This document shows positions 18,275-64,000 of a stretch of DNA of 64,000 nucleotides, one piece after another; positions within the stretch are counted from its first letter, which is position 1; each line of letters begins with the position of its first letter. The notes under the pieces are model-generated. The model made no database searches. It was not told the DNA's origin and worked only from the letters and a program-made list of their open reading frames with translations. The translations under genes and the position numbers were made by a program. The DNA is from Candidatus Thalassarchaeum betae (GTDB lineage: Archaea > Thermoplasmatota > Poseidoniia > Poseidoniales > Thalassarchaeaceae). The DNA lies in contig PSPG01000008.1 of NCBI GenBank assembly GCA_003193925.1, positions 32,001 through 96,000 on the forward strand, in the 5' to 3' direction.

Positions 18275-18465
18275 TATGAAAGAAGTGGGTCGATGTTTCT
18301 GACATGCTCGGTCCGCCGAAGGCGGAATAACCGAAAATAAAAACGATTTGAAACCTTTCGATATCGCTTCCTCACAGGCCGATAATGCGTGTTTTCTCAT
18401 TAGGATAGCATCATAGCAGAGGGGTGTGCCCGAAGGGCCCCGGGGGTGGGATCCTGAACGATGAC

Positions 18466-24970: not shown

Positions 24971-25101
24971 GACGGCCGACGCCGAGATTCCCCCTTCAAG
25001 CGTTGCGGCTAGGCTACCGACCTCGTGAATGGCGAAAGCCACTGTTCCGAGTGCTCTGGCTGGGGATGCGATTATGCGGGAGTGGCTTCGGTCGGGATTT
25101 G

Positions 25102-28100: not shown

Positions 28101-28833
28101 CACGATCGATCCGTTCGAGGGCGAGATGCTCGAATGGAAGATGCCGTGGATCCTGCTTGAGTCGGTCCTGGTCCTGTGCGTGCTCACCGACGCATGGATA
28201 GACCGCAAGAGACGGGCTGCCGGGCGAGGGGACTGGAAGAACTCCTCCGGCCGGGGTGCTCGCAGCTTGGTCATCGTGTTGCTCTCGTTCGGTCCCGCAG
28301 GCATCCTAGCGGTAGCCAGCGTCATCGAGCAGGGCTGGAGGTACAGGCAGCCGAGCGCGGTCGGTATCGCCATCCCCGCTGGCCTGATGGCGCTATTCGC
28401 CGTCGGTAACTGGTGCGAACCGGTCATGGACGTGGTCCCGGAGATCACCATGGCCACGGGTCTGCTGCTTCTGGTGCTGTGTGCCTTGACCGTCCCTCTC
28501 AAGGGCGGCGATTGGACGATGATGCTGGCGTTCAACTCGCATCTGCTCATCATAGTCATCGCCGTCGCGCATCACGCCACCTCGGTTCTGCTTCCGGTGC
28601 TGCTCGTCGCACTCTCCTCGACGGTCTGGATAGTGGGCATACTGCAGTTGCGACGTACCCTGCGGATCTGGGGCTTGGCCGACCTGCTGGTCGCCATCAT
28701 AGGTGCGCTGATATTCGTCGATGGCATATTCGAGCCGACCACGATGCTGATTGCCCTGATGGTGGTCGCTGCGGAGCTCGGCGTTGTCTCCTGGCTCGGT
28801 CTGCGCAACGAAGAGCAGTTGGTTAAGGACTGA
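25102..28833 (+). CDS. Very large polytopic membrane protein (DUF2339-like), function unknown
   Basis: ~1240 aa, acidic N-terminus, then dozens of hydrophobic helices with one central soluble segment. Confidence 0.8.
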   Translation: MSDEAPDDRIIREREFRRKVNIDLSDVVVPERSGDEEERREQLASAVDEALGSVFDPFEQPSGDEAGAVQEDGSVPLAPERDIVTEVAVEGERRVNWMLMVSMIIVYSAIGIQAGLALSPLLATAVLLILAGIGFALGERWVPEPNMTLLGVTWVIISMKVLYGLAIELNRWGFIEIEALGALLLFLVAMNVVVAYRHDHDAIAAQSTLVLLAIGSTAGSVLGEIGVAAMILIATLLVHGLALHRQSGNLAALGVAASNLWIGMHAITGGFEIGTLRILPLDSPLLLFLLLMTITAINATMAARFAREDNWFSKGCKALGLGEPGLWGVSIALGMVGALLAVAASREEVGYALGMVTFLGAAFGGSYLSVRGVASKRVATPLLGVTPILVLILIAGSRVDAALPLDSYELFTVLGFIVTGFVMLRDQERVTDRALWLGSMVILMLLVLLVPTEASDSGGDGGVVLLVLLGALHIGTAVLAIKRGSPSLAGVTVLLPWSWVLIEEIVQETVRTLLVANDVTDPGSLIDLDPEPLGVYLALSSILLVVVNVRLGGTGVNLAARFLGVTEISASIRDSGALQLWSMGWWLPLFTMIFMAHFGGFTVATLLLVLVLLTALHFGAEIADKRIGGAGNMVTILAVAVVVMQWRHGLFVPLSALLCVSIVALLLTRAPSNEKLYTSGMSMMSLPLLLALSGREASMLLESTVSLPDIDTSLVAVLCTAAVLGVYLPRAGSIEKLLNPALAALWLLVITIALSFDQGDQTTKVASIAMFVVSSLWLVARGELRAELRSVAMRDSRIEMAAKAAGEEAMLEGSGAVSMYDARRAALEAERRKRRDKSDTDDLEELYTTDVSHKPVVVTAVLSLILGAGIILGLLNGSNPLMLVAIGVFATALIALARHRSKSLDLELPHIMGMEMPIAMAISGLVAAHVASHLGPGSSNQQLLDMAVVTMLLLELVAISLMGQDKLLDRIPIALDWIVLPLLAGRMLGAIAVEALPYPLTIDPFEGEMLEWKMPWILLESVLVLCVLTDAWIDRKRRAAGRGDWKNSSGRGARSLVIVLLSFGPAGILAVASVIEQGWRYRQPSAVGIAIPAGLMALFAVGNWCEPVMDVVPEITMATGLLLLVLCALTVPLKGGDWTMMLAFNSHLLIIVIAVAHHATSVLLPVLLVALSSTVWIVGILQLRRTLRIWGLADLLVAIIGALIFVDGIFEPTTMLIALMVVAAELGVVSWLGLRNEEQLVKD

Positions 28834-28940: not shown

Positions 28941-29891
28941 GTGACAAGGTCGTGGATATCGGACACGCCCGACGAGGTCGAGCACCCGCCCGTGCCGCTG
29001 GGGCTCAACGAGATGACTGTGCCCCGGGCTGCCATACTGCTGTCGCTGGGCACCGCCCTAGTGCTGTTGCTCTCCACAATCTGGCTTGGCTGGGCCGCTT
29101 GGCACTTCAACGCCAATCTGGAGGCGTCCTTCGGCCCAGCCACTGAAGCCCCATCCATAGACGGCCGCTGGACTTGGGAGGTCGACCTGCTGTTCGACAC
29201 CTGCTCGCCCCGCGAGGACGACTGGACTTGGCCGGACAACCTCGCCGAGCAGGACGGTGTCTTCCTGTATCCGGGCGAGCTCCGCTGCGACTGGGAGCAC
29301 CAGGGTGACGGCGACCGTGCAAGCGTGGTGATCTACAATCGTGGCAACGAGTCGCTCAATCTGGTGCTGGAGATCCAAGGCGGGGATGTGATCTTCTCAG
29401 CGACCGACGAGACCGGTGACGTACTGAATCTGGAGGGCAGCGAGAGCAGGATCGTGGAGATCGAGCTTCTGGACGACGTGTCCGAGAGCGACATCACAAT
29501 CTCAGTCAGCCATCTCACGGTGGTGGACGCGGAGGTTCTCCTAGACGTGCAGATATTCAAGGGTACAGAGGAGCGAGATATCCACATCAATGACAACGAC
29601 AGGATCGAGGTCCATTACATCGTCTGGAACGCCGACACCGAAGAGAAGCTGGACGAGGGGGACTTACTCGTCACAGCAGGCGACGACCCTGCCTACATCT
29701 ACGGGTTCGGATGGTCGGCGATAGGCTTGGACATCAACAACGACAGGGGCCTCATTCCAGGCATTGACACCGGTACTGCCCATACCACCCTACTGCCTCC
29801 TCCCATCGCCTACGGTAACAGTGACGGCCACGAATTACAGGATGCTTGGCTGCGTTTCGAGCTGAAGGTCGTCAGGGCCCCGATTTCCTAG
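28941..29891 (+). CDS. Membrane-anchored protein with C-terminal FKBP-type PPIase-like domain
   Basis: N-terminal TM; 'DRIEVHY...IYGFGWSAIGL...LPPPIAYG...LRFELKVV' matches the FKBP pattern. Confidence 0.65.
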   Translation: MTRSWISDTPDEVEHPPVPLGLNEMTVPRAAILLSLGTALVLLLSTIWLGWAAWHFNANLEASFGPATEAPSIDGRWTWEVDLLFDTCSPREDDWTWPDNLAEQDGVFLYPGELRCDWEHQGDGDRASVVIYNRGNESLNLVLEIQGGDVIFSATDETGDVLNLEGSESRIVEIELLDDVSESDITISVSHLTVVDAEVLLDVQIFKGTEERDIHINDNDRIEVHYIVWNADTEEKLDEGDLLVTAGDDPAYIYGFGWSAIGLDINNDRGLIPGIDTGTAHTTLLPPPIAYGNSDGHELQDAWLRFELKVVRAPIS

Positions 29892-29917: not shown

Positions 29918-31237
29918 GTGCTCGGAGGCAGTGACGTGGGAGAAGGGAGTCGGCACACTGCTCTGAACCCCTCCGCGCAGATCGCGAAGGAGGCCCGGAA
30001 GCGCGTCAGGGCCGAGCCGGCGCGCAAGGGAGAGCCATCATTCCACATGACTGAGGAAATGCGCAGGCTCTCCACTCCGTGGTACGTGGCGCTCGCCCGC
30101 GCCCGGCGGATCGATTCCTCGGTTCTGCCGGCCGGCGTAATCCTAGACGCTGCGGCCGGATCCGGCCTGCAGTTGGTCGCTTACTCGCGCGAGCTCAAAC
30201 GGCCTGCTCTCGGGGTCGAGATGGACGGTAACATAGCGGTCCTGTGCGCGGCTAACATGCACATCAACTCGGACGAGGGCGACCTCCAGCGCTCGATGGA
30301 TCGTGTCATCATAGGTGACGGGTCGGATGCTGAGGGTGCCATCACGGAGTACTGGAACAGCCTCCGCGAGGCTGGAACCCGGGCGCATCCACCGATTGCG
30401 ATGCTCCACCTCGACCCCGCGCGCCCGCCCGATGCCCAAGCCCATGATGTGGACGAGATGCAGCCTGCCATCGGACCCGTGCTGAGCTCATGGGGCAAAC
30501 ACTTGCAGAGCGGCCCGAGAGGACCGGCGGTGCTGCTCGATCTGTCACCGCGCCTCGGGGAGGAGCAGCAGGGCATAATCGATGCCATCGTCGAGGTCAC
30601 TTTCCCCGGAGTTAGTCGTACTTGGGAATGGCTCAGCCAAGGAGGAGGGAGAGTCGACCGGCTCTCGCTGTGGGTCGGGTCCCTGTCCTCAAAGAAGAGT
30701 CGTCGCTGCGTCAGGATGGGTACGAAGAACGTGCTCGCCACGATAGAGGGTGCTCCCGCGGGGTCCGAGGTAGTACAGATGAACACTCCCCCGCCCTTCG
30801 GCGCTTGGATGACTATCGTCGATCCGGCCCTCGTTCACAGTGGTCTGCAGGAGGCCTGGCTGAAGCGCGCCCTGCGAGAGGGCGGCGGCCACTCATGGCT
30901 ACGACTCGAGGGGCGACGCCCACTACTGATTCACACCGACCCCCTCAACGGCTCGGATGACGTCGGTGGATTCGTCGTTGCGAGCGGTGAGATAGTGCAG
31001 CACAGGCTCAGGCCGCCCGAGCTCCACACCATCGATCAGACCGCTGCCTCTGCGGCGAGAAACGGCATCGGCAAGGTCACTCTGCGCTGCAGCTTGGATC
31101 CTGACATCCATCCGACGCTGCAACGCAGGCTGGACAGGGAGCTGAAGGAAGTCGACGGCGCGAGGGGGTTCATGGTCGACATCGATCTCGAGCGCGGCTC
31201 CGGAAGCCACAAGCTGTACGTAGTCTGTAAGGGATAA
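29918..31237 (+). CDS. Class I SAM-dependent methyltransferase-like protein with THUMP-like C-terminus
   Basis: 'ILDAAAGSG', 'LHLDPAR', 'DLSPRL', 'EWLS'; start uncertain. Confidence 0.65.
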   Translation: MLGGSDVGEGSRHTALNPSAQIAKEARKRVRAEPARKGEPSFHMTEEMRRLSTPWYVALARARRIDSSVLPAGVILDAAAGSGLQLVAYSRELKRPALGVEMDGNIAVLCAANMHINSDEGDLQRSMDRVIIGDGSDAEGAITEYWNSLREAGTRAHPPIAMLHLDPARPPDAQAHDVDEMQPAIGPVLSSWGKHLQSGPRGPAVLLDLSPRLGEEQQGIIDAIVEVTFPGVSRTWEWLSQGGGRVDRLSLWVGSLSSKKSRRCVRMGTKNVLATIEGAPAGSEVVQMNTPPPFGAWMTIVDPALVHSGLQEAWLKRALREGGGHSWLRLEGRRPLLIHTDPLNGSDDVGGFVVASGEIVQHRLRPPELHTIDQTAASAARNGIGKVTLRCSLDPDIHPTLQRRLDRELKEVDGARGFMVDIDLERGSGSHKLYVVCKG

Positions 31238-43533: not shown

Positions 43534-44730
43534 TCAAGGTCGCAACTTCGCCTTCGCCGTCGCCACATTCGGGTCGCTGGGCAGCTCTTTCTGGGCCGAT
43601 TTCAAAAGAGCGTCCACCGCATTCGAGCGGCCTATCCTCTGCAGCAGGGCTCCCACGGGGTAGACCAGCTTGGGGCGGTCGCCGAGATGGGGGCCGACTT
43701 CGTCGATGATGACGGTGGACTGCGCGATGTCCCTGGAGCGGGCCGCCTCCATCGCCGCTTTCACCCGAAGAGCGACCTTGCGATCAGACCACATGTCCTG
43801 CTGAGCCCATGGCCAGTAGTTGTCGGGCTCAGGAGCCTTGGCACTGATGGGCGGAATAACCGGGGGCGGTGGGATGGGCATCGGCTCCTGGTCCTCGTCG
43901 ACTTCTGGAGGGGATGGTGGGGCCGGGGGCATCAGCGGTGGTGGAAGATCAGTCGGAGGCGGTGGTATCTCGACCTCGCCTGGAGCCTCTTCCGGCTCGG
44001 CCTCTAGCAGGGTTATCAAATCGGACTTATTGAGTTTGGAGAAGCCTGTCAGTCCGCGCTCCCTCGCCATCTTCTTCAGAGTGTCCACGGTCATGTTCGA
44101 AAGGCCGGAATCGGCCTCGGGCTCCACCTCTGGCTCGGGCTCCGGTGCCGGCTCAGACCCTTGGACCTCAGCCATCTCGCCGTTCGTGTCCGGAATCTCA
44201 CTGGCCGAGATGACCTCGACGGTCTCAGGTGCGTCGGCGGTGGGCTGAACGAGTTCTATCTGCTGCGTCTGAATCGCCTCAATCGGTTCCGGTTCGATCT
44301 CCGGGACCTCGAACTTAGTAACGAACTCGGGAGCGTCCCCGGGCTTGAGCTCGTACTCCACATCCTCCTCGTCCGATGGCTCTGGGTGGTCGACGGTCAT
44401 GGCGAAGGACGGCTTCTGATTCGTCAGCACCACGTCGTCCTTGCCGTACTGCTTGACTTCAATCGTCATATCGTCCATGGTGAATGAGGCCTTCGACCAA
44501 TCGATAATCTCGTCGCTGTCGTCCTCCTCCATCTGCTCAAGGAGCTCGTCGAAGAGGTCGGTGGCGACCTCATCATCGATAGTCGATTCCTGCTGGTGAG
44601 AGGCTTTCTGCAGTTGGTAGGAGCAACGAGAGCAACTCTCGGTGCCCTCGGGGTTCCTCTGCTGGCACAACGGGCATTCGACACCCACCTCCTCCTGCTT
44701 TCGCCAGGCTTTGAATCGGTCGAACACCAT
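43534..44730 (-). CDS. Zinc-ribbon + acidic linker + Rho-N/HEH domain + Pro-rich protein
   Basis: 'CPLC...CSRC'; 'LSNMTVDTLKKMARERGLTGFSKLNKSDLI'; poly-Pro; helical C-terminus. Confidence 0.78.
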   Translation of the reverse strand: MVFDRFKAWRKQEEVGVECPLCQQRNPEGTESCSRCSYQLQKASHQQESTIDDEVATDLFDELLEQMEEDDSDEIIDWSKASFTMDDMTIEVKQYGKDDVVLTNQKPSFAMTVDHPEPSDEEDVEYELKPGDAPEFVTKFEVPEIEPEPIEAIQTQQIELVQPTADAPETVEVISASEIPDTNGEMAEVQGSEPAPEPEPEVEPEADSGLSNMTVDTLKKMARERGLTGFSKLNKSDLITLLEAEPEEAPGEVEIPPPPTDLPPPLMPPAPPSPPEVDEDQEPMPIPPPPVIPPISAKAPEPDNYWPWAQQDMWSDRKVALRVKAAMEAARSRDIAQSTVIIDEVGPHLGDRPKLVYPVGALLQRIGRSNAVDALLKSAQKELPSDPNVATAKAKLRP

Positions 44731-50349: not shown

Positions 50350-50581
50350 GCGCCGACTCCGATGAGCAACTGTACAAGGACGACAGGTTCTCGCTGAGTG
50401 CATCCCATCCCCTCGCTTTTTTCTCTCGCCCTGTACACCCGAATAAGGCGGTTGCGAGGCTATGCAAAGTCCCGTTTCCGTATTTCTAACCGACAAAAGT
50501 TCCATTCGTATCACCACCATCCCGGGGCGTGGAACCCGTAGACGAGTGGACCGTGGCCGAACTCAAGGCCGAACTCAAGGA
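50350..50581 (+). repeat. Copy 2 of the ~220-bp direct repeat (divergent intergenic region plus first codons of the SAP gene)
   Basis: See copy 1; this copy is continuous with the intact ORF at 50529. Confidence 0.92.
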
Positions 50582-51392
50582 ACTCGGGCTCTCAAACAGT
50601 GGGAACAAGCAGGAGTTGTACGACCGCCTGGTCGAATACGAGGAGGGTGAGGACTGGGACGAGGATGAATCGGGCTTCGACGCCTCTGATCTGGCTCGCT
50701 CTTTCGCTGGTGCCATGGTGAGGAACAGAGTCGCCATAGGGGCGGTCTCCGCGGTAGTTATCCTAGTCGTCGCAGTGGCATTCGCCGGCCCGATGCTGCT
50801 CGACCTGTTCCGGCAGGAGGGGGCGAGCGAGCCGGAGGTGTACGTCTGGGAGTTCACGGTAGAGGAGAGGAACGTTACCGATGTCAAGAGTTACTTCATC
50901 AACGATGACACCACCGAGAGTGTGGTGGTCACGGTTCCGCTTACGAGGAACCTCTCTAGCATATACATCGGGGCCTACTGGCGGGAGTCTGACGAGCAGC
51001 CCGGGGGGATCATAGGCTGTGACGAGGTGACTATGGAGGTGTTTACCACCGATGTGAACAAGACGAACCTCTACTCTCTATCCAATACCGATGCCGCTAG
51101 TTCGGACTGCGATGCCGATGGAACCGAGCCATGGGACCACATATGGTACCAGTATGACCTCGAGCTTCCCAATATCACCGGTTTCGAGGGCACCGAGGAG
51201 GAGGCGCTTGCGATCTGGGATACCTACACGGGAATAGGGACCGGTGCGTGGCTCATCGATATCAGCGTGGACACTTACACCCTCTGGGGTCCAGTCTGTG
51301 ACTGCGAGGATGGCGAGGACGTCAGGCTGACCGTTTCCTACATCGAGTACGATGTCAATATGGCGAAGGCGCAGCCCTCGACCGATGGGTAG
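50529..51392 (+). CDS. SAP-domain membrane protein with extracellular C-terminal domain
   Basis: 'WTVAELKAELKELGLSNSGNKQELYDRL' SAP motif; single TM; acidic C-terminal domain. Confidence 0.85.
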   Translation: MEPVDEWTVAELKAELKELGLSNSGNKQELYDRLVEYEEGEDWDEDESGFDASDLARSFAGAMVRNRVAIGAVSAVVILVVAVAFAGPMLLDLFRQEGASEPEVYVWEFTVEERNVTDVKSYFINDDTTESVVVTVPLTRNLSSIYIGAYWRESDEQPGGIIGCDEVTMEVFTTDVNKTNLYSLSNTDAASSDCDADGTEPWDHIWYQYDLELPNITGFEGTEEEALAIWDTYTGIGTGAWLIDISVDTYTLWGPVCDCEDGEDVRLTVSYIEYDVNMAKAQPSTDG

Positions 51393-56706: not shown

Positions 56707-58209
56707 ATGAGTGCTTACGACGAGTTGCTGGAGCGACTGAAGGACATCGATATGATCGGCCAGATTGGCGGCCTCTTGGGCTGGGACCAAGAGGTCCTGA
56801 TGCCGCCCAAGGCCGCCGCACTGCGCGCCGAGCAGCTGGCTTGGGCCTCCAAGGCAGGTCACATGCGACTGACCGACCCCCGAATCGGGGAGCTGCTCGA
56901 GGAGCTCGAGGCTAGCGAGGAGCTGGACGATGTCCAAGCGGCCAACATCAGGCTCGCTCGCGAGTCGTATGACAAGGCCACCAAGCTGCCGACCGAGTTC
57001 GTCGCCGAGATGGCCAAGCACCGCTCCGAGTCACTGGTATCATGGACCGAGGCTCGGGCGAAGGACGACTTCTCAATCTTCCGCGATAATCTCGCCAAGT
57101 CAATCGACCTCGCCCGCCAGAAAGCGGACTACCTAGGCTTTGACGAGTTGCGCTACGACGCGCTGCTAGATATCTACGAGACTGGGCTGACCGTGGCTAG
57201 GCTCGACCCGCTGTTCGCAGGATTGCGAGACAGCGTCGCGCCCCTGATCAAAGCCGTAGTAGAGAGCGAAAACCGCCCCGACATGTCGTGGGTAGAGGGG
57301 AACTCCTGGGCTCAGTCCGGACAGGAGGCGCTCAGTCAAGGGGTGACCGAGGCCATCGGATTCGACTTCGACGCCGGCCGCCGGGACGTCTCGACCCACC
57401 CGTTCTGCGGCGGGACGAACCCGGACGACGTGCGCTGGACGACTCGCTACAGCGAGTCCGACCCGTTCGGCTCACTGTACGGCTCGATGCACGAGACAGG
57501 TCACGGGACCTATGAGCAGGGGCGCCGGCGCGACCTTGACTTCCAGCCCGCCGGCGAGGCCAATGGATTGGGCGTCCATGAGAGCCAGAGCAGGATGTGG
57601 GAGAACCAAGTGGGTCGCTCAAGGGAGTTCTGCGAGTGGGTCCTGCCGCTGTGGCAGCAGCACTTCCCCGAGAACATGGAGGGTGTCAGCGCCAAGGCGC
57701 TGTGGCAGGCCGTCAACCTCGTCGAGCCGAGCCTGATACGGGTCGAGGCCGACGAGGCCACCTACAACCTCCACATCATGATCCGCTACGAGATCGAGAA
57801 GAGGCTAATCGCCGGTGACCTCGAGGTCGACGACCTGCCGGACGCCTGGGACGACATGTACGAGAAGTTCCTCGGTATCCGCGCACCCAACCGCGCCCTC
57901 GGCGTGCTGCAGGACATCCACTGGTCCATGGGGGCCTTCGGCTACTTCCCCACCTACACTCTGGGCAATTTGTACGCCGCGCAACTGCTGGCCGCCGCGC
58001 GCGAGGACCTGCCCGAGCACGACGAGCAGATCAGGCGCGGTGAGTTCGCACCACTGCTCGCTTGGATGCGCGAGCACGTGCACCAACGCGGCAGCATACT
58101 CGAGCCAGCCGACCTCATCGAGGAGGCGACCGGCTCGCCGCCCTCCCCCGACGCTTTCGTCGAGTATCTGCAAGACAAAGTCGAGCGGCTCTATGGCGTC
58201 ACTGCCTGA
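56707..58209 (+). CDS. Carboxypeptidase, family M32
   Basis: 'WDQE', 'HPF', 'HETGH', 'HESQ', 'IRVEADE', 'QDIHW', 'GYFPTY'. Confidence 0.96.
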   Translation: MSAYDELLERLKDIDMIGQIGGLLGWDQEVLMPPKAAALRAEQLAWASKAGHMRLTDPRIGELLEELEASEELDDVQAANIRLARESYDKATKLPTEFVAEMAKHRSESLVSWTEARAKDDFSIFRDNLAKSIDLARQKADYLGFDELRYDALLDIYETGLTVARLDPLFAGLRDSVAPLIKAVVESENRPDMSWVEGNSWAQSGQEALSQGVTEAIGFDFDAGRRDVSTHPFCGGTNPDDVRWTTRYSESDPFGSLYGSMHETGHGTYEQGRRRDLDFQPAGEANGLGVHESQSRMWENQVGRSREFCEWVLPLWQQHFPENMEGVSAKALWQAVNLVEPSLIRVEADEATYNLHIMIRYEIEKRLIAGDLEVDDLPDAWDDMYEKFLGIRAPNRALGVLQDIHWSMGAFGYFPTYTLGNLYAAQLLAAAREDLPEHDEQIRRGEFAPLLAWMREHVHQRGSILEPADLIEEATGSPPSPDAFVEYLQDKVERLYGVTA

Positions 58210-58259
58210 GCGACTTGCCTACGCGAAAGCCCGATAGCGGAGCATCGGGGTGTGGAGCC

Positions 58260-59348
58260 ATGGGCGGCCATACCTTGGAGGGGCTCGCATCGCTGGTGCG
58301 CAACCTCGGCAGCGCCTGCACCTTGCTGCGCATTGCCGACGACGACCTGCTGGCTGGCTCGCAAGAAGGAGAGCTGATATGCTGGTCAGTCGAATCCGGC
58401 ACCGAGCGCTGGAGGGTCGAGGTCGACGGGCCATTGTCCGACCTCGCCATCGACGGCGGTCGTGTCTACGCCTCGGCCTCAGCCAGCCTGCACGCGATTG
58501 ACCTGGATACTGGCGAGATTCTCTGGAGTCGGGGGCTCGAGGGGGCGAGCGACTACGTCCAAGCATGGGACGGCAGCGTCTGGGCTGTGTCCTCGGTCTA
58601 TGAGATCGAGGTTTCCGACTACACCGAGTCGACTGTCTGGAGATTCGACGGAATGGGGGAGCTGCAGGAGCGCTGGACTGTGCCTGAACGCGCTTGGCAC
58701 TTCGGACTGCACGAAGACGGGGGCGTCCTGCTCGGTCTCGGCAGACCCCGCTGCGGGTTCCTGAGAATCCGAAGCGGTGAGGAGCCTGAGCATCACCAGA
58801 TCGAGGGTGACAGCCCCGTCACAGTCGGAGCCTGCGGTTCGAGCGGTCGGTTCCTGATTGGCCACTCCGACGGAAGCGTCAGTACGATCGTCGGCTCCGA
58901 CGCGAAGACCGCAGGCGAGGGGTCGTCGCCGGTTCGTGCCATCACCGGCCACGGCGACGATTGGATCGCCGGTCAGGAATCGGGCCAAGTCGTCTCGAGC
59001 CGGGGTTGGACCACGACGGCGGCCGGCTCGGTGGACTCGCTCTCGATGGGGCCCTCGACATCCGAGGGCGAAGCCGTCTGGGTATCCTCGTGGAAAGGAG
59101 ACGGGGTGAGAATATCGGTCCTCGACCCAGACGGCGGCGGCTCCCTGCTGGAGTTCGACCACGGCCATAGGACAAGGCACATCCAAGCGAGCGCAGGTAA
59201 AGTCGTCCTAGGGGACTCCAGGGGGCGAATTCACCTGATCGAGGCAGGGGTCCTTACAAGGCGCGTGAAGGAATCGCCCGTGCCTGCCTCTGACGATGAG
59301 AATCGGGAGCGCCTGATGGAGCGTCTGAGGCAGCTTCGCGGCTCTTGA
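58260..59348 (+). CDS. PQQ-like beta-propeller repeat protein
   Basis: 'GTERW', 'AIDLDTGEILW' blades; ATG 58260. Confidence 0.75.
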   Translation: MGGHTLEGLASLVRNLGSACTLLRIADDDLLAGSQEGELICWSVESGTERWRVEVDGPLSDLAIDGGRVYASASASLHAIDLDTGEILWSRGLEGASDYVQAWDGSVWAVSSVYEIEVSDYTESTVWRFDGMGELQERWTVPERAWHFGLHEDGGVLLGLGRPRCGFLRIRSGEEPEHHQIEGDSPVTVGACGSSGRFLIGHSDGSVSTIVGSDAKTAGEGSSPVRAITGHGDDWIAGQESGQVVSSRGWTTTAAGSVDSLSMGPSTSEGEAVWVSSWKGDGVRISVLDPDGGGSLLEFDHGHRTRHIQASAGKVVLGDSRGRIHLIEAGVLTRRVKESPVPASDDENRERLMERLRQLRGS

Positions 59349-59404
59349 ATTCAATAGAAATTAACAGTTGGGTACCCCTGTTTCCGGTGGACTGCGGGTC
59401 TGTT

Positions 59405-59420
59405 TGAAAAGGTTTAAGTG
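59405..59420 (+). promoter_or_regulatory. Candidate archaeal BRE + TATA box (GAAAAGG-TTTAAG) for the downstream non-coding element
   Basis: Purine-rich BRE directly before TTTAAG; no credible CDS downstream. Confidence 0.55.
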
Positions 59421-59443
59421 GGTACACCTGCCCTGTCATCTTT

Positions 59444-60285
59444 GCCGCTTCTTTGGAGTGGTGTGGGGGCGCTTCGGCGCGACCCGCGGGCCACAGAACG
59501 AAGCCCCGAGAAAGGGGCGGCGGAACCCGGGATCTGGAAAGAGAACGGGGAAGAGTCGGAACGCCTGTAGGCGGGAAGACGGCGGGAGAGCCGAAGCGGA
59601 CGAGAGTGGAGAGAACCGGAGAGAACTGGACGAAAGGAAGGGGGAGGAAGGGGAAAGGAAGCTGGAGGAAGCGGAGGGGGAAGCTGAGGAAAACGTAACC
59701 GAACTGGAGAGAACTGGACGCAAGGAAGGGGAAGGAAGGGGAAAACACAACCGAGGCAGAGGAACCATCCCGAAGAGATACGCGCGGAAGGGGGAGGAGA
59801 CGAACCTGGAGGCGGCGTGGAGAACGAAGTGGAGAGACCGACGGGAACCGGACGCAAGGAAGGGGAAGAACGGGAAGGAAGCGGAGGAGGAACACGAGTG
59901 AACGAGGGCGGAGAGATCCGTGGAGGAAGCTGTATCGGACCGTGGAGAGAACCGGAGAGAACTGGACGCAAGGAAGGGGGAGGAAGGGGAAGGAAGCGGA
60001 GAACGCGAAGGGGGGGGAAACGCCCTTGGAGAGAGAAGATGAGCGAAGTGGAGAGAACCGGAGAGAACTGGACGCAAGGAAGGGGGAGGAAGGGGAAGGA
60101 AGCGGAGCGCGACGAAGTGGAGAGAACCGGAGAGAACTGGACGCAAGGAAGGGGGAGGAAGGGGAAGGAAGCGGAGGAGTCTACCCGGGGAAGCCCGGGC
60201 CTTAGGGCCCGGGGGACACCCGGACCCTGCGGAGTATGCAGGGGGGGAAGCTCCCCCATGTGCGGAACCCCCTGCTGCTCCCACC
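59444..60285 (+). ncRNA. Putative large structured ncRNA with an internal purine-rich repeat array
   Basis: Ends pair (59455-59469 with 60268-60281); terminal hairpin clusters including cUUCGg; upstream promoter; G.U pairs favour the + strand. Confidence 0.55.
59606..60176 (+). repeat. Six interspaced copies of a 60-nt unit GTGGAGAGAACCGGAGAGAACTGGACGCAAGGAAGGGGGAGGAAGGGGAAGGAAGCGGAG
   Basis: Identical copies at 59942-60001, 60048-60107, 60117-60176; degenerate copies at ~59606, ~59701, ~59829. Confidence 0.93.
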
Positions 60286-60334
60286 TGTACCGCCAAGTAC
60301 GTCATCGGCCCACCTTGTCAGCGTTACAATCATT

Positions 60335-60353
60335 GCGGAGCGTTTCGCTCCGC
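60335..60353. terminator. Perfect hairpin between the putative ncRNA and fumC
   Basis: GCGGAGCG-TTT-CGCTCCGC. Confidence 0.45.
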
Positions 60354-60387
60354 TTGAGACGGTTTCGGAAGGCTGAGAAAATCACCG

Positions 60388-61989
<1,602 letters not shown>

Positions 61990-62010
61990 ATTTCGCAGCG
62001 CGTTAATTGG

Positions 62011-62022
62011 TTATTAATAAAG
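62011..62022 (-). promoter_or_regulatory. Candidate TATA box of fumC, lying within the perfect palindrome TTATTAATAA
   Basis: AT-rich island 22-33 nt upstream of ATG 61989, consistent with a leaderless transcript. Confidence 0.55.
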
Positions 62023-62079
62023 TCAGGCTGTCGAGTCGCAGTGCATCGTATTGTTTGATGACTATTCACGATATGGCAG

Positions 62080-62565
62080 CTAGATTCGCTCGACACTGAC
62101 GATTTGCTGTGGGTCATAGGGCCGGTCACCTGGCTTGATGTCGCAATTCTCGATTCGGTACACGTTCTCCATACCCTCGATGACCTCTCCGAAGACTGCG
62201 TGGTTGCCATCGAGCCACGGTGTGGGCACGGTGGTGAGGAAGAACTGCGAGCCGCCGGTGTTGCGGCCCGCGTTGGCCATCGAGAACAGCCCGGGACGGT
62301 CGTGTCGCTTGGCGAGGGCTGAGGGCTCGCACGGAATCTTCCACCCAGGCCCCCCAGTACCAGCGGCTCGGCTGTCCGGGTCCCTCGAGCGCGGGCAGCC
62401 TCCTTGGATCATGAAATCCTTGATGACGCGGTGGAAGTGCTGGCCATTGTAGAACCCGGCATCGACGAGCTTGAGGAAGTTCCCCGTGGTCTCCGGGCAG
62501 TCCTCGGTGTACAGTGCGATCAGTATCTCTCCGGCGCTGGTTGTCATCTTGACTACAGTAGGCAT
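62080..62565 (-). CDS. Cyclophilin-type peptidyl-prolyl isomerase
   Basis: 'FHRVIKDFMIQGG', 'SMANAG', 'SQFF', 'WLDGNHAVFG'. Confidence 0.95.
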   Translation of the reverse strand: MPTVVKMTTSAGEILIALYTEDCPETTGNFLKLVDAGFYNGQHFHRVIKDFMIQGGCPRSRDPDSRAAGTGGPGWKIPCEPSALAKRHDRPGLFSMANAGRNTGGSQFFLTTVPTPWLDGNHAVFGEVIEGMENVYRIENCDIKPGDRPYDPQQIVSVERI

Positions 62566-62644
62566 GGACTCGGGAACGCTCACAGGCACAAGAGCATATG
62601 TGTGTCGCCCTAACCCTAATGATGGTGTCCGGAACTGGCCCAAT

Positions 62645-63814
62645 GTGAGTACCCTTAGCGACTACGACTGCCCCAAGTGCTCGACGAAACTCAGGGTGGA
62701 GTCAGCCGAGGAAGTAGATGGCGTCGACTTGCTGGTCTGCATCAAGTGCTGGGGCCTCGCAGTACAGGCCAAGACGATGCAAGGAATCGTTCCTGACGAA
62801 GTACGGGAGAAAATCGAGAACGCGGGGTTCAAGCACCCAGAGGGGCGCAGCTGCCCGGTTTGCCCCTCTACGATGATGGAAATAGCAGTGCCCAAACCAT
62901 TCGGATCAGAGGACCGAGCGAGCGAGCACGATGTGAAGATAGACATCTGCGGGGACTGCGCCACCATCTGGTTCGATGCAGGCGAGCTCGACACCCTGAA
63001 CGGCATCAAGCCGAAGCTGCGTAAGGTGGAGATGGAGGATAGCGCTGACAAGATAACGGCGGTTGTCGACGACTCGAGTTCCTCAGTGAAGTCGAGGAGG
63101 GTCGCGGGGATTTTCCTAGCATCACTCGGGTTGATGTTGCTGGGTGCAGGTTCGGGTGCCTGCTGGTCCATCACATCACTTCTGGTGATCCTGGGAGGCG
63201 GGATCCTTGCCATTACCGTGGCCCCGGAGACCGGACTTGAGAAGGGGGCCTGCAGCCGCTGCGGCCTCGAGGACGAGACGATTGGTTGGACTTGCCAGAG
63301 GGCGGGGTGCGAGGCTCCCATCTGCACCACATGCAGGTCGGCGGGTCAAGATCCGGCCGCGCAATACGTGAAGACCCTAGGTGGCGGTGCGTTGATGGTG
63401 GCGGGAGTCGTGCTTGGTATCGGTCTCCTCGTCGTCACTGAAGGGGCTGTGGCTGAAGGATTCCTCCCGGCAGCAGCCGGTTACGAATTGATTTCAGACG
63501 ATGAGGAGGAAGGTCTGCTAGTCTGCAAGGAATGCAAAAAGGAGATGGGTGCCCTTCAGTTCGCCGATTCCGATGCTCGCACAGAAAGAAAGGAATGGAC
63601 TGAGAAGGAAAAGAAGACGGCGGCAGGGGGGCCTTGGGATGTTGTCGATTCTTTCGCCGAGGGGGTGAAGGATGCGGAGTCAAAGAGTGCTCAGCGCGAA
63701 GAGTACCTGAAATCGCAGACCCACTGCCTACACATTGACGGGAAGACTGTCAAAAGGTGCCGCAGGATGGTTTTTCGCAAGTCAGGCTACTGCTACAGAC
63801 ACCAACGGGAGTGA
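62645..63814 (+). CDS. Multi-zinc-finger membrane protein (two zf-TFIIB-like ribbons, further Cys clusters, C-terminal C3H finger)
   Basis: 'CPKC..CIKC', 'CPVC..IDICGDC..IWFDAGEL', TM segments, 'C...RC...YCYRHQ'; GTG 62645 start. Confidence 0.8.
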   Translation: MSTLSDYDCPKCSTKLRVESAEEVDGVDLLVCIKCWGLAVQAKTMQGIVPDEVREKIENAGFKHPEGRSCPVCPSTMMEIAVPKPFGSEDRASEHDVKIDICGDCATIWFDAGELDTLNGIKPKLRKVEMEDSADKITAVVDDSSSSVKSRRVAGIFLASLGLMLLGAGSGACWSITSLLVILGGGILAITVAPETGLEKGACSRCGLEDETIGWTCQRAGCEAPICTTCRSAGQDPAAQYVKTLGGGALMVAGVVLGIGLLVVTEGAVAEGFLPAAAGYELISDDEEEGLLVCKECKKEMGALQFADSDARTERKEWTEKEKKTAAGGPWDVVDSFAEGVKDAESKSAQREEYLKSQTHCLHIDGKTVKRCRRMVFRKSGYCYRHQRE

Positions 63815-63818
63815 TTGA

Positions 63819-64000
63819 ATGGCAAAGTGCAAGGGCATAGATGAGAATGGAGAGGTTTGTGGGCGCCCCGCCATGTACAATTCCGATTACTGCAAGAATC
63901 ACAGGACTCAGGACCCAACTGTGAGTATCTGCATGGGCAAGAACCCCGCTGGCAAACCCTGCTCTAGGATGGCGTTGGAGGGCCTTCTATTCTGCAGGCA
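63819..64000 (+). CDS. Partial protein with tandem C-x-C-x-C-H zinc-finger repeats (runs off window end; absent from the ORF track)
   Basis: MAKCKGIDENGEVCGRPAMYNSDYCKNH...CMGKNPAGKPCSRMALEGLLFCR. Confidence 0.75.
   Translation, partial: MAKCKGIDENGEVCGRPAMYNSDYCKNHRTQDPTVSICMGKNPAGKPCSRMALEGLLFCR

What the first reader, a model, noticed from the sequence alone, without database searches (positions are those of the whole stretch)
59606..60176. Array of six 60-nt GGA-rich units, each with a mini-hairpin: sponge-like architecture
Seen: three identical and three degenerate copies with uneven unique spacers (9 to ~85 nt); degeneracy is greater toward the 5' end. Each unit has CCGG-AGAGAA-CUGG, and pairing is retained in the variants (CUGG..CUGG; CCG..CGG), followed by an AAGGAAGGGGGAGGAAGGGGAAGGAAG tract. 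Known: CsrB/RsmZ RNAs titrate a protein through repeated GGA loops, but CsrA is not an archaeal protein. Inference: multivalent binding sites for an RNA-binding protein (Sm/Lsm, cold-shock or Zn-finger), anti-SD decoys, or G-quadruplex/R-loop/triplex formation.
Basis: partly seen in the sequence, partly recalled or inferred. Interest (0 to 1): 0.75.

Follow-up and report, generated by a model that had tools for sequence, protein, structure and literature searches.

The report
Repeat array inside abundant archaeal RNA
The six purine-rich repeats are real and lie inside a non-coding RNA gene of about 850 bases that is conserved, folded and abundant in RNA samples of Marine Group IIb archaea; no database names this RNA family and its job is unknown.

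Summary
The array is real. Six ~58-nt GA-rich units lie at 59608-60176 (U4=U5=U6; U1 57/58; U3 50/58; U2 45/58). It occurs only here in the 1.48-Mb genome.

It is not a free-standing array. It is the expanded middle of an ~850-nt non-coding RNA gene (+ strand, ~59442-60295) between a PQQ-propeller gene and fumC.
- A BRE/TATA box lies at a fixed 29-nt distance in 82 of 82 relatives.
- The 5' and 3' domains covary strongly: 18 of 32 and 10 of 21 predicted pairs have compensatory changes.
- A model of the 3' domain finds one copy in 102 of 150 genomes of the family (Thalassarchaeaceae by record titles) and in 0 of 101 of the sister family.
- The stretch is held by six metatranscriptome runs from six studies.
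- Rfam has no match, and the published MGII RNA Tan1 is not detectably homologous.

Copy number varies from 0 to 6, and this genome has the most.

The anti-SD, G-quadruplex, CsrA, MITE and coding readings are not supported.

The likeliest role is a multivalent docking array on an RNP scaffold, but this is inferred and not shown.

The parts
58062..59348 (+). Upstream neighbour: PQQ-like beta-propeller protein gene (the true start is probably downstream of 58062)
   Evidence: Pfam PQQ_2 at 6.4e-15. Found upstream of the RNA in 89 of 95 family loci. Only 42-73% amino-acid identity within the genus.
59381..59395 (+). Conserved upstream box TTTCCGGTGGACTGC, one half of an inverted repeat with a TCCAGTGGAAAT-like box that is degenerate in this genome; possibly a regulator site
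   Evidence: Alignment of 12 orthologous gaps. The TCCAGTGGAAAT box (<=2 mismatches) lies upstream in 62 of 82 family loci. It is not clustered in the genome.
59408..59417 (+). Archaeal BRE/TATA-like promoter AAAGGTTTAA
   Evidence: AAAGGTTTAW (<=2 mismatches) is present in 82 of 82 family loci. Its TTTA starts exactly 29 nt before the conserved TTGCYGCT in 82 of 82. BRE/TATA naming and the usual TATA-to-start spacing are recalled knowledge.
59442..60295 (+). The non-coding RNA gene (about 850 nt). The 5' end is inferred from the promoter spacing and the onset of conservation. The 3' end is approximate.
   Evidence: Conservation of 76-84% across species, covariation and RNA-library contigs. 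Adapter-bearing contig ends lie near 59450/59494 and 60235/60287 (table 7).
59442..59605 (+). Conserved 5' domain: hairpin UUGCCGCUYC-NNN-GRAGUGGUG, helix GUGGG...CCCGC enclosing GCGC-UUCG-GCGC, hairpin GCCCC-GAGAAA-GGGGC, hairpin CGCC-UGUA-GGCG and others
   Evidence: RNAalifold on 32 diverse members: 32 pairs, 18 with compensatory changes, invariant G-U pairs. On 18 mostly same-genus sequences: 45 pairs, 7 compensatory.
59608..59667 (+). Unit U1 (core hairpin 59626-59641, loop GAAA)
59697..59745 (+). Unit U2 (core hairpin 59714-59729). This is a lineage-specific insertion; the relatives carry a plain CCG-GCAA-CGG hairpin at this position.
59831..59888 (+). Unit U3, degenerate (core hairpin 59848-59863)
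59944..60001 (+). Unit U4 (core hairpin 59962-59977)
60050..60107 (+). Unit U5 (core hairpin 60068-60083), part of the perfect 69-nt tandem duplication
60119..60176 (+). Unit U6 (core hairpin 60137-60152)
60153..60288 (+). Conserved 3' domain. It holds hairpin CCCGGGCC-UUAG-GGCCCGGG, the invariant GGACCCUGCGGAGU (60222-60235), and a long hairpin at 60238-60275 with an internal GGAA/GGAA purine block and an invariant CCCCCA loop. It ends in GCUCCCACC (60277-60285).
   Evidence: RNAalifold on 33 diverse members: 21 pairs, 10 compensatory. The GGAA/GGAA block is replaced by Watson-Crick pairs in L068, L130 and L095. Model R1 matches here at 134 bits.
60388..61989 (-). Downstream convergent neighbour: class II fumarate hydratase with an N-terminal ribbon-helix-helix domain
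   Evidence: TIGR00979 at 777 bits, over its cut-off. Lyase_1, FumaraseC_C and RHH_1 hits. Convergent downstream of the RNA in 91 of 95 family loci.

Best explanation
The six units are the expanded central region of a single-copy, highly expressed, structured non-coding RNA of about 850 nt. It is transcribed from its own archaeal promoter on the + strand, between a PQQ-propeller gene and fumC.

SHOWN:
- The RNA gene exists across one archaeal family (Thalassarchaeaceae / MGIIb by record titles) in fixed synteny.
- Its 5' and 3' domains are held by many compensatory base changes.
- It is present in RNA libraries of several studies.
- The conserved core of each unit is a small hairpin, C-Y-G-G-A-C[G-N-A-A]G-G-A-A-G-G. 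It has a GNRA tetraloop, a closing pair that covaries (C-G to G-C), an outer Y-G/U-A pair that covaries, and three conserved purine-purine oppositions (GGA over GAA).
- The number of such hairpins per RNA ranges from 0 to 6, and this genome has the most.

INFERRED:
- The conserved ends form the core that defines the RNA particle.
- The purine-rich middle is a flexible string that displays repeated GNRA/G.A hairpins as equivalent docking sites for a protein partner, so the RNA would be an RNP scaffold or titrating sponge.
- Tandem duplication or gene conversion tunes the number of sites; U4, U5 and U6 are identical.

The confidence figure given for this explanation (0.4) is that of the inferred mechanism.
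For: Unique locus:
- The unit is found only here in the genome.
- This is the only window of >=72% purine in 1.48 Mb.

Selected non-coding DNA:
- The gap is 76-84% identical in 17 of 20 same-genus genomes.
- The upstream protein is only 42-73% identical.
- Of 37 distinct indels among 11 same-genus RNAs, only 6 are multiples of 3.
- Unit spacings fall in three different frames.
- The ORFs over the array have no Pfam match.

Promoter:
- AAAGGTTTAW is present in 82 of 82 loci, always 29 nt before TTGCYGCT.

Structure:
- Compensatory changes occur in 18 of 32 pairs of the 5' domain and 10 of 21 pairs of the 3' domain.
- Invariant G-U pairs fix the strand as +.

Unit hairpin:
- There are 198 instances in 78 of 84 unique RNAs.
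- The closing pair is C-G 172, G-C 26, other 0.
- The outer pair is C-G 105, U-G 62, U-A 30, C-A 0.
- On 46 distinct units, 99.3% of cells pair against 86.5+-1.7 in shuffles (0 of 500 reach it). Covariation is 0.474 against 0.226 (0 of 500). Slid controls give 16-80%.

RNA libraries:
- 6 metatranscriptome runs from 6 studies hold 42-59% of the stretch's words.
- All 4 runs laid carry contigs on 59337-60338. Single contigs reach depth 1,627-2,700 in X18. The only contigs laid on the flanking genes in X15 have depth 3-6.2 (the tool warns that contig depth cannot rank genes).

Distribution:
- Model R1 gives exactly one match each in 102 of 150 genomes of the family and 0 of 101 in the sister family.
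- The pattern scan of 185,579 species found 107 stretches; 79 of the 80 listed are MGII/Poseidoniales/Thalassarchaeaceae records.
- Synteny: 91 of 95 loci have fumC downstream and 89 of 95 have the PQQ gene upstream.

Copy number:
- 0:12, 1:13, 2:43, 3:7, 4:5, 5:3, 6:1 by the strict motif. This genome is the one with 6.
Against: - No partner is known and none was tested, so the docking role is an inference from architecture alone.
- Nearest-neighbour folding gives the units no more stability than shuffled sequence (z -0.89, +0.33, +0.88). The isolated 28-nt core is predicted unfolded. The hairpin therefore rests on covariation and on G.A pairs that the energy model treats poorly.
- Twelve of 84 RNAs have no strict core and 6 of 84 have not even a loose one, so the unit may be dispensable.
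- Deep-branching genera (g2, g3, g11, g16) carry a less purine-rich RNA built from ordinary UUCG/GNRA hairpins.
- Strand and ends are not shown by reads. Only contigs were available, and they carry no strand.
- This genome lacks a T-run after the 3' motif, and only 45 of 82 relatives have one within 70 nt.
- Ordinary Watson-Crick-stemmed GNRA/UNCG hairpins are not enriched in this RNA (3 observed against about 3 in shuffles).
Confidence: 0.4

Rival explanations
1. The array is a tolerated expansion segment. The function of the RNA would lie in the conserved 5' and 3' domains (an RNP or ribozyme-like core). The purine-rich middle, units included, would grow and shrink by slippage and duplication with little consequence, like variable arms of telomerase or RNase P RNAs.
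For: - Copy number runs from 0 to 6 and RNA length from 481 to 851 nt among the 81 members without N.
- U2, U5 and U6 are lineage-specific insertions or duplications.
- RNA-library contigs join 59733-59742 directly to 60112-60220, so shorter forms exist in nature or in assembly (table 5).
- The ends are far more conserved than the middle.
Against: - The core 20-mer is kept across at least six genera with covarying pairs. A neutral spacer would not show that.
- 78 of 84 RNAs keep at least one copy.
- At one position a unit replaces an older GNRA hairpin rather than random sequence.
Confidence: 0.25
2. It is an RNA-only architecture. The GNRA loops and G.A blocks would make tertiary or intermolecular RNA-RNA contacts, so that the RNA folds or multimerises into a large particle without a dedicated protein, as reported for the bacterial GOLLD, ROOL and OLE RNAs.
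For: - It is large, has many helices and is lineage-restricted.
- It carries many GNRA loops (GCAA 114, GAAA 43, GUAA 3, GAGA 1 in strict cores).
- It has an invariant CCCCCA loop that could pair with the G-runs.
- Across the family, WC-stemmed GNRA/UNCG hairpins number a median of 6 against 2.2 in shuffles.
- Precedent: preprint 10.1101/2024.12.08.627333 (search listing and start of abstract only).
Against: - No tetraloop receptor was identified.
- The invariant loop gives no covariation to test.
- A purine-rich single strand is a poor builder of compact folds.
- Nothing here bears on multimerisation.
Confidence: 0.2
3. One reading: the GGAGG-containing tracts are anti-Shine-Dalgarno decoys, or the G-tracts form G-quadruplexes, triplexes or R-loops that are the functional element.
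For: - This genome's RNA has 12 GGAGG and 20 runs of >=4 G.
- The 700-bp polypurine/polypyrimidine tract is the kind of DNA that can form H-DNA or R-loops (general knowledge).
Against: - GGAGG per RNA has a median of 2 and a range of 0-12 across 84 members. In this RNA the count is not above composition (12 against 9.5+-2.9).
- A canonical G4 motif is absent from 53 of 84 RNAs. The single one here lies in the base-paired 3' hairpin, not in the units.
- What is conserved is a hairpin with covarying pairs.
Confidence: 0.05
4. It is a DNA-level or mobile element (MITE or satellite, CRISPR-like array, replication origin), or a low-complexity protein-coding gene.
For: - Open frames of 201-289 aa cross the array on both strands, as expected from its composition.
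- An upstream box resembles, from memory only, the archaeal origin-recognition-box core.
Against: - There is one locus per genome.
- The 'spacers' are conserved between species, and unit spacing is irregular at 69-134 nt.
- No Orc1/Cdc6 gene was recognised nearby, and the box is not clustered.
- Indels are mostly not multiples of 3, and the units lie in three frames.
- The ORFs have no Pfam match.
Confidence: 0.03

Closest known systems
Tan1 (Thalassoarchaea ncRNA 1), Sci Rep 2016, PMC5069720
   Same: It is an uncharacterised, very abundant non-coding RNA of Marine Group II archaea found in a metatranscriptome. It is purine-rich and built of short hairpins followed by G-run/A-rich linkers. A homologue has its own TATA-like box and a T-run end (passages; Table S5 rows; homologue L259).
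   Different: - Tan1 is about 230 nt as published, and about 340 nt in L259.
- It lies upstream of a ferredoxin gene, not between the PQQ gene and fumC.
- The family HMM finds nothing in L259 at E<=10, and the 3'-domain model gives 6.8 bits, E 0.33, which is noise level.
- Tan1 DNA was not found in 201 genomes of this family or 151 of the sister family.
- This genome has no second purine-rich region.
- Figure 5 and the PDF supplement of the paper could not be seen.
CsrB/RsmZ-type protein-sponge RNAs of bacteria
   Same: An abundant non-coding RNA that carries a variable number of repeated purine-rich (GGA-containing) hairpin units. This is the working analogy for multivalency.
   Different: - It is bacterial.
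- No CsrA gene was found here.
- No Rfam match.
- GGA lies in G.A pairs below a GNRA loop, not in the loop.
- The units sit inside a large RNA with conserved 5' and 3' domains.
OLE, GOLLD and ROOL: large ornate bacterial ncRNAs
   Same: They are 0.5 kb or more, restricted to one lineage, have many covariation-supported helices and have no known biochemical function. OLE is described as exceptionally highly expressed (start of abstract of PMC3413148). As a kind of thing, they are the nearest.
   Different: - There is no sequence or structure similarity (Rfam scans).
- This RNA is archaeal and about 74% purine, with a modular repeat array.
- Those papers were seen only as search listings and abstract starts.
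GNRA hairpins stacked on sheared G.A pairs (sarcin-ricin-like or hammerhead-like purine blocks); motif level only, recalled
   Same: A C-G pair closes a GNRA loop and is followed by A.G and G.A oppositions (GGA over GAA).
   Different: - The block is a symmetric 3x3 without the bulged G of the sarcin-ricin motif and without the 3-nt bulge of a kink-turn.
- The resemblance is from memory and was not tested.

Membership tests
Any Rfam 15 family | Match to a covariance model at its gathering score | tested here: not met
   The whole window at gathering threshold gives only 2 tRNAs. The locus at E<=10 gives a best hit of ilvH at 25.6 bits against its 55.1-bit gathering score. RNase P RNA and SRP RNA lie elsewhere in the genome.
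CsrB/RsmZ sponge RNAs | Cognate CsrA/RsmA protein encoded by the genome | tested here: not met
   PF02599 has 0 matches in the window's own genome (92% complete). The control rings in E. coli, B. subtilis and T. maritima.
CsrB/RsmZ sponge RNAs | GGA motifs displayed in hairpin loops or single-stranded | tested here: not met
   In the covariation-supported unit hairpin the apical loop is GNAA. GGA lies in the stem opposite GAA.
Tan1 (PMC5069720) | Detectable sequence or structure homology | tested here: not met
   nhmmer with the 84-member family HMM finds nothing in L259 at E<=10. Model R1 gives 6.8 bits, E 0.33. The full published Tan1 sequence was not typed; its homologue L259 was used instead.
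Tan1 (PMC5069720) | Same genomic place | tested here: not met
   Tan1 lies between a hypothetical gene and ferredoxin. This RNA lies between the PQQ gene and fumC in 89-91 of 95 loci.
MITE / dispersed satellite | Many copies dispersed over the genome | tested here: not met
   The 133-nt two-unit query matches only this locus in the window's genome; the next best hit is 17 nt, E 1.1. There is one R1 match per genome in 102 of 102 positive genomes.
CRISPR array | Regular repeat-spacer period with unique, unconserved spacers | tested here: not met
   Spacing is 69-134 nt. The sequences between units are conserved between species.
Kink-turn / K-loop (L7Ae site) | Tandem sheared G.A pairs next to a 3-nt bulge or replacing the C-stem by a loop | tested here: inconclusive
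   GGA/GAA oppositions are conserved (G.A 41, G.A 40, A.G 38 of 47 distinct cores). The block is symmetric and has no bulge. Two L7Ae-family genes exist in the genome. Binding is not testable here.
Large ornate ncRNAs as a kind (OLE, GOLLD, ROOL) | Longer than 450 nt, multi-helix structure supported by covariation, restricted lineage | tested here: met
   Length 481-851 nt. 18 of 32 and 10 of 21 pairs are compensatory. 102 of 150 genomes against 0 of 101 in the sister family. This is likeness of kind only; homology is not met.
Archaeal replication origin (ORB repeats) | Clustered inverted ORBs around an AT-rich stretch next to orc1/cdc6 | tested here: not met
   No Orc1/Cdc6 family hit in the window. 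The box has 3 scattered hits in the genome and none here. The ORB consensus itself is recalled.
Protein-coding gene | Frame-preserving evolution and a consistent reading frame | tested here: not met
   Only 6 of 37 indels are multiples of 3. Unit offsets modulo 3 are 1, 2, 0, 1, 0. The ORFs have no Pfam family.

The most novel reading that the evidence does not exclude
This would be the first protein-titrating or scaffolding long RNA of archaea. It would be a super-abundant 0.5-0.85-kb RNA of the ocean's Marine Group IIb archaea whose conserved ends build the particle. Its middle would display a tunable number (0-6) of identical GNRA/G.A hairpins as docking sites, so that copy number sets the capacity of the sponge. 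This genome would be the most expanded case known. A bolder form of the same reading is that the hairpins dock onto each other and the RNA builds an RNA-only assembly like ROOL or GOLLD.
Probability: 0.3. Interest if true: 0.85.

Novelty: new variant of a known kind. Interest (0 to 1): 0.72.

Why it matters
Marine Group II archaea are among the most numerous archaea of the surface and mid-depth ocean, and none is in culture. An RNA of 0.5-0.85 kb that is kept in one place across a whole family is likely to be central to their cell biology. It has dozens of covarying base pairs and turns up in metatranscriptomes of several independent studies. It is nevertheless absent from Rfam and, as far as my searches reach, from the literature.

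Large structured RNAs of unknown function are rare, and almost all known ones are bacterial. This would add an archaeal class with an unusual purine-rich modular build.

Practical consequences:
- Gene callers can lay low-complexity ORFs over it.
- It can take up many reads in marine RNA libraries.
- Its repeats break assemblies; three relatives carry 300-397 N exactly there.

The model built here gives a way to annotate it.

Tried and rejected
1. Tan1 as the same RNA.
- A 17-nt Tan1 motif was absent from 69 loci.
- It gave only noise-level hits in 121 family genomes, and the 12 loci fetched are not purine-rich.
- It gave only 3 weak hits in 84 family RNAs.
- A metagenome scan with it found one real Tan1 homologue, L259. 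That homologue is a different, shorter RNA at another locus, with no HMM or CM similarity.
- Tan1 DNA was found in 0 of 201 and 0 of 151 genomes. The tool notes that an empty answer without a positive control shows nothing.

2. Replication origin. The upstream TCCAGTGGAAAT box recalled the ORB core, but there is no orc1/cdc6 nearby and no clustering.

3. Thermodynamic support for unit hairpins. There is none; z-scores are near 0.

4. Enrichment of ordinary GNRA/UNCG hairpins in this RNA. There is none.

5. The 15-nt 5' motif in the sister families. The 1-mismatch hits (L028-L052) lack purine bias and the 3' motif, so they are chance. L146 (Microbacterium) lacks the 5' motif, so it is chance too.

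6. Parts of the laid stretch without contig cover. In X16-X18 most flanking bins are empty, and in X15 the bins over 58001-59336 are empty.

7. Earlier notes of this scan. There are none on this RNA.

8. Literature searches that found nothing on this RNA:
- 'marine group II' + 'noncoding RNA' + metatranscriptom* (it yielded only the Tan1 paper)
- Poseidoniales + ncRNA
- Thalassarchaeaceae + 'non-coding RNA' (the one paper, PMC12379486, is irrelevant, passages read)
- Tan1 + Thalassoarchaea
- psRNA + Euryarchaeota
Full report
THE OBSERVATION. The array is there. The repeat finder reports a six-member family with start-to-start spacings of 88, 134, 114, 106 and 69 nt. TRF reports a perfect 69-nt period x1.9 at 60044-60176. 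A 25-nt unit motif occurs four times against 0.00 expected in 100 shuffles. Against U6 (60119-60176), U4 and U5 are 58/58 identical, U1 is 57/58 with two 1-nt insertions, U3 is 50/58 and U2 is 45/58. The + strand is about 74% purine over the whole RNA. In the 1.48-Mb genome this is the only place where a 200-nt window reaches 72% purine or pyrimidine.

WHERE IT LIES, AND WHAT IT IS NOT. The units sit in a 1,039-nt gap between two convergent genes. One is a PQQ-like beta-propeller gene (58062-59348, +). The other is a class II fumarate hydratase carrying an N-terminal ribbon-helix-helix domain (60388-61989, -).

- The unit occurs nowhere else in the genome, so it is not a MITE or satellite.
- Open frames cross the array on both strands, but that follows from its composition. 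The units fall in three different frames.
- Only 6 of 37 distinct indels among 11 same-genus sequences are multiples of three.
- The ORFs match no Pfam family.
- The genome is archaeal. Its RNase P RNA (227 bits) and SRP RNA (123 bits) lie on other contigs.

IT IS A GENE FOR AN RNA. The whole gap is 76-84% identical in 17 of 20 genomes of the same genus, while the upstream protein is only 42-73% identical. The alignment of 12 orthologous gaps shows where conservation starts and stops. It begins about 25 nt after a BRE/TATA-like AAAGGTTTAW box and ends at GCUCCCACC(UGU).

Across 82 family loci with enough flank, that box (<=2 mismatches) is present in 82. Its TTTA always starts exactly 29 nt before the conserved TTGCYGCT. 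Here TTTA is at 59413 and TTGCCGCT at 59442. By the usual archaeal TATA-to-start spacing (recalled), this puts the start at about 59440-59445.

A T-run follows the 3' motif within 70 nt in only 45 of 82 loci, and not in this genome. The 3' end is therefore approximate.

RNA LIBRARIES. The index finds the stretch in 20 of 24 listed runs from 13 studies. Six of these are metatranscriptomes from six studies, holding 42-59% of its sampled words. I laid four of them on 57500-62500.
- All four carry contigs on 59337-60338.
- Single contigs reach depth 1,627 (399 nt, 59570-59968, 3 differences) and 2,484-2,700 in X18.
- X15 has 1,515 laid records.
- The only contigs laid on the flanking genes in X15 have depth 3-6.2.

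DNA carry-over would not give that contrast. The tool stresses, however, that contig depth cannot rank genes and that these runs were chosen for holding this stretch. I read it as presence in RNA libraries and a strong hint of high abundance, not as a measurement.

Contigs that end in sequencing adapter lie near 59450 and 59494 on the left, and near 60235 and about 12 nt past 60287 on the right (table 7). That fits the inferred ends. Contigs carry no strand. Independent RNA contigs with 0 differences tile U2-U4 and the U4/U5/U6 junctions (records 11-15, 21, 22, 29-31). This argues against an assembly artefact, with the caveat that short contigs fit more than one repeat.

THE RNA IS FOLDED.
- 5' domain, 32 diverse members: RNAalifold predicts 32 pairs, 18 with compensatory double changes. 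Several G-U pairs are invariant and would be A-C on the other strand.
- 3' domain, 33 diverse members: 21 pairs, 10 compensatory.
- The long 3' hairpin (60238-60275) has an internal GGAA/GGAA purine block. Three members replace it by Watson-Crick pairs: ACAA/UUGU in L068 and L130, and AAAU/AUUU in L095. Its loop keeps an invariant CCCCCA.
- The mostly same-genus sets gave 7 compensatory pairs each.

ANATOMY OF THE UNIT. With up to 4 substitutions it occurs 198 times in 78 of 84 unique family RNAs, as 47 distinct versions.

- Positions 8 and 13 are C-G in 172 instances, G-C in 26, and never anything else.
- The four bases between them are G-[A/C/U]-A-A, a GNRA tetraloop.
- Positions 4 and 17 are C-G in 105, U-G in 62, U-A in 30, and never C-A.
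- Between these pairs lie conserved purine oppositions G.A, G.A and A.G, twice replaced by A-U.
- On 46 distinct units, 99.3% of cells pair against 86.5+-1.7 in shuffles (0 of 500 reach it). Covariation is 0.474 against 0.226 (0 of 500). Slid registers give 16-80%.

It stems from a 10-nt duplication, GGAGAGAACY, in this genus, and its 3' arm is the 5' strand of the conserved hairpin.

Against my model, RNAfold gives the units no more stability than shuffles. It predicts the isolated core unfolded. The G.A pairing is an inference from the pattern.

HOW THE ARRAY AROSE. Relatives in the genus have 2-5 units. U2 is an insertion where relatives have a plain CCG-GCAA-CGG hairpin. U5 and U6 form a perfect tandem duplication. 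By the strict motif the family has 0 (12 RNAs), 1 (13), 2 (43), 3 (7), 4 (5), 5 (3) or 6 (1) cores. The single RNA with six is this one. It is also the longest of the 81 members without N (851 nt; range 481-851, median about 650). The three nominally longer ones hold 300-397 N exactly at the repeats. RNA contigs that join 59733-59742 to 60112-60220 show shorter forms, or assembly collapse, in three runs.

DISTRIBUTION.
- A 15-nt 5' motif (<=1 mismatch) marks g1 15/17, g4 15/16, g12 17/22, g15 27/35 and g18 4/11, with genus-specific variants. One of these variants is compensated in its helix.
- Hits in the sister family are chance.
- A scan of one genome per 185,579 species with a 3'-domain pattern gave 107 stretches. 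Of the 80 listed, 79 are titled Poseidoniales, Thalassarchaeaceae, Thalassarchaeum, Marine Group II or unclassified euryarchaeal MAGs, and 1 is a chance Microbacterium hit.
- A covariance model of the 3' domain gives exactly one match in 102 of 150 genomes of the family: g1 11/14, g2 2/2, g4 14/15, g12 14/14, g13 10/12, g14 15/15, g15 11/14, g17 13/14, g18 11/13; none in g3, g5, g11 or g16. It gives 0 of 101 in the sister family.
- In g3, g11 and g16 the same PQQ-to-fumC gap holds a diverged RNA. It has the same promoter and 5' hairpin and weak model matches (13.5, 9.9 and 13.9 bits). It is less purine-rich and built from ordinary UUCG/GNRA hairpins.
- One genome of a third family has the PQQ gene directly next to fumC with no gap. 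One genome of the sister family has neither the PQQ gene nor a purine-rich region.
- Synteny holds in 91 (fumC) and 89 (PQQ) of 95 loci.

- CsrA is not encoded (genome 92% complete).
- GGAGG is not conserved (median 2 per RNA, range 0-12) and is not above composition here (12 against 9.5+-2.9). Canonical G4 motifs are absent from 53 of 84 RNAs and from the units here.
- The general idea of a multivalent RNA survives. The specific hairpin, the loop display of GGA and the decoy and quadruplex ideas do not.

WHAT IS KNOWN. Rfam 15 has no match. The only related report I found is Tan1, a 229-nt abundant purine-rich RNA of MGII. I saw it in PMC5069720 through passages and Table S5 rows; Figure 5 and the PDF supplement were not seen. 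A Tan1 homologue fetched from a metagenome (L259) is about 340 nt, lies upstream of a ferredoxin gene, and shows no similarity to the family HMM or the 3' model. It is therefore the same style but not the same family. Five further searches found nothing on this RNA. As a kind of thing, the nearest are the large ornate bacterial RNAs OLE, GOLLD and ROOL, which I saw only as search listings and abstract starts.

HOW IT MOST LIKELY WORKS. Shown: it is a single-copy, promoter-driven, folded, family-wide RNA that carries a variable number of one conserved GNRA/G.A hairpin. Inferred: the conserved ends form the core of a particle, and the purine-rich middle cannot pair with itself. It therefore acts as a flexible string displaying equivalent hairpins as docking sites for a partner, with duplication or gene conversion setting their number.

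The rivals are a tolerated expansion segment (0.25), an RNA-only tertiary or quaternary architecture (0.2), decoy, quadruplex or triplex (0.05), and a DNA element or coding gene (0.03).

LIMITS.
- No raw reads were available, so strand, ends and level are not measured.
- No partner was tested.
- The G.A pairs and the BRE/TATA, ORB, kink-turn and sarcin-ricin comparisons rest on recalled knowledge.
- The genomes are MAGs of 60-98% completeness, so 'not found' is not 'absent'.

Noticed in passing
window 60388-61989 (-): The class II fumarate hydratase carries an N-terminal ribbon-helix-helix (CopG-like) domain at residues 12-48 (RHH_1, 2.6e-4). Matches in a sister-family genome (G026) and in g2 (G021) start only at query residues 67-72, so the domain may be missing there.
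   Followed up: partly
L259 (reverse strand, about 1328-1678): A homologue of the published Tan1 RNA. It is about 340 nt and purine-rich, with a TATA-like box upstream and a T-run at its end, directly upstream of a ferredoxin gene. It was not found by BLAST in 201 and 151 genomes of the two MGII families, so its host lineage is unclear.
   Followed up: partly
window 59352-59396 and the same place in relatives (for example L308 about 1660-1700): An inverted-repeat box (TCCAGTGGAAAT ... TTTCCRGTG) lies 60-100 nt upstream of the RNA start. It is kept in 62 of 82 family loci but is degenerate in this genome. It is probably the site of a regulator of the RNA gene.
   Followed up: partly
window 9713-18484 (-): A giant ORF of 2,923 aa has only weak beta-propeller matches (PorZ_N, Reg_prop). 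Next to it, the ORFs at 25003-28833 (1,276 aa), 28941-29891 and 29918-31237 match no Pfam family.
   Followed up: no
window 62471-63814 (+) and 63819-63998 (+): These are cysteine-rich proteins with repeated CxxC zinc-ribbon motifs (Zn_ribbon_TFIIB, 4e-5). The second one runs off the window. They match no NCBIfam family.
   Followed up: no
window 43534-44730 (-) and 50529-51392 (+): An archaeal protein with a Rho_N-like domain and a protein with a SAP domain. Both are small nucleic-acid-binding folds that are unusual in archaeal annotation.
   Followed up: no
G007: C34:72661-73439 and C42:2847-3253: One same-genus genome holds the 5' part of the RNA on two contigs. This suggests either two strains in the bin or an assembly break at the repeats. 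Three other relatives (L087, L132, L159) carry 300-397 N exactly at the repeat array.
   Followed up: no
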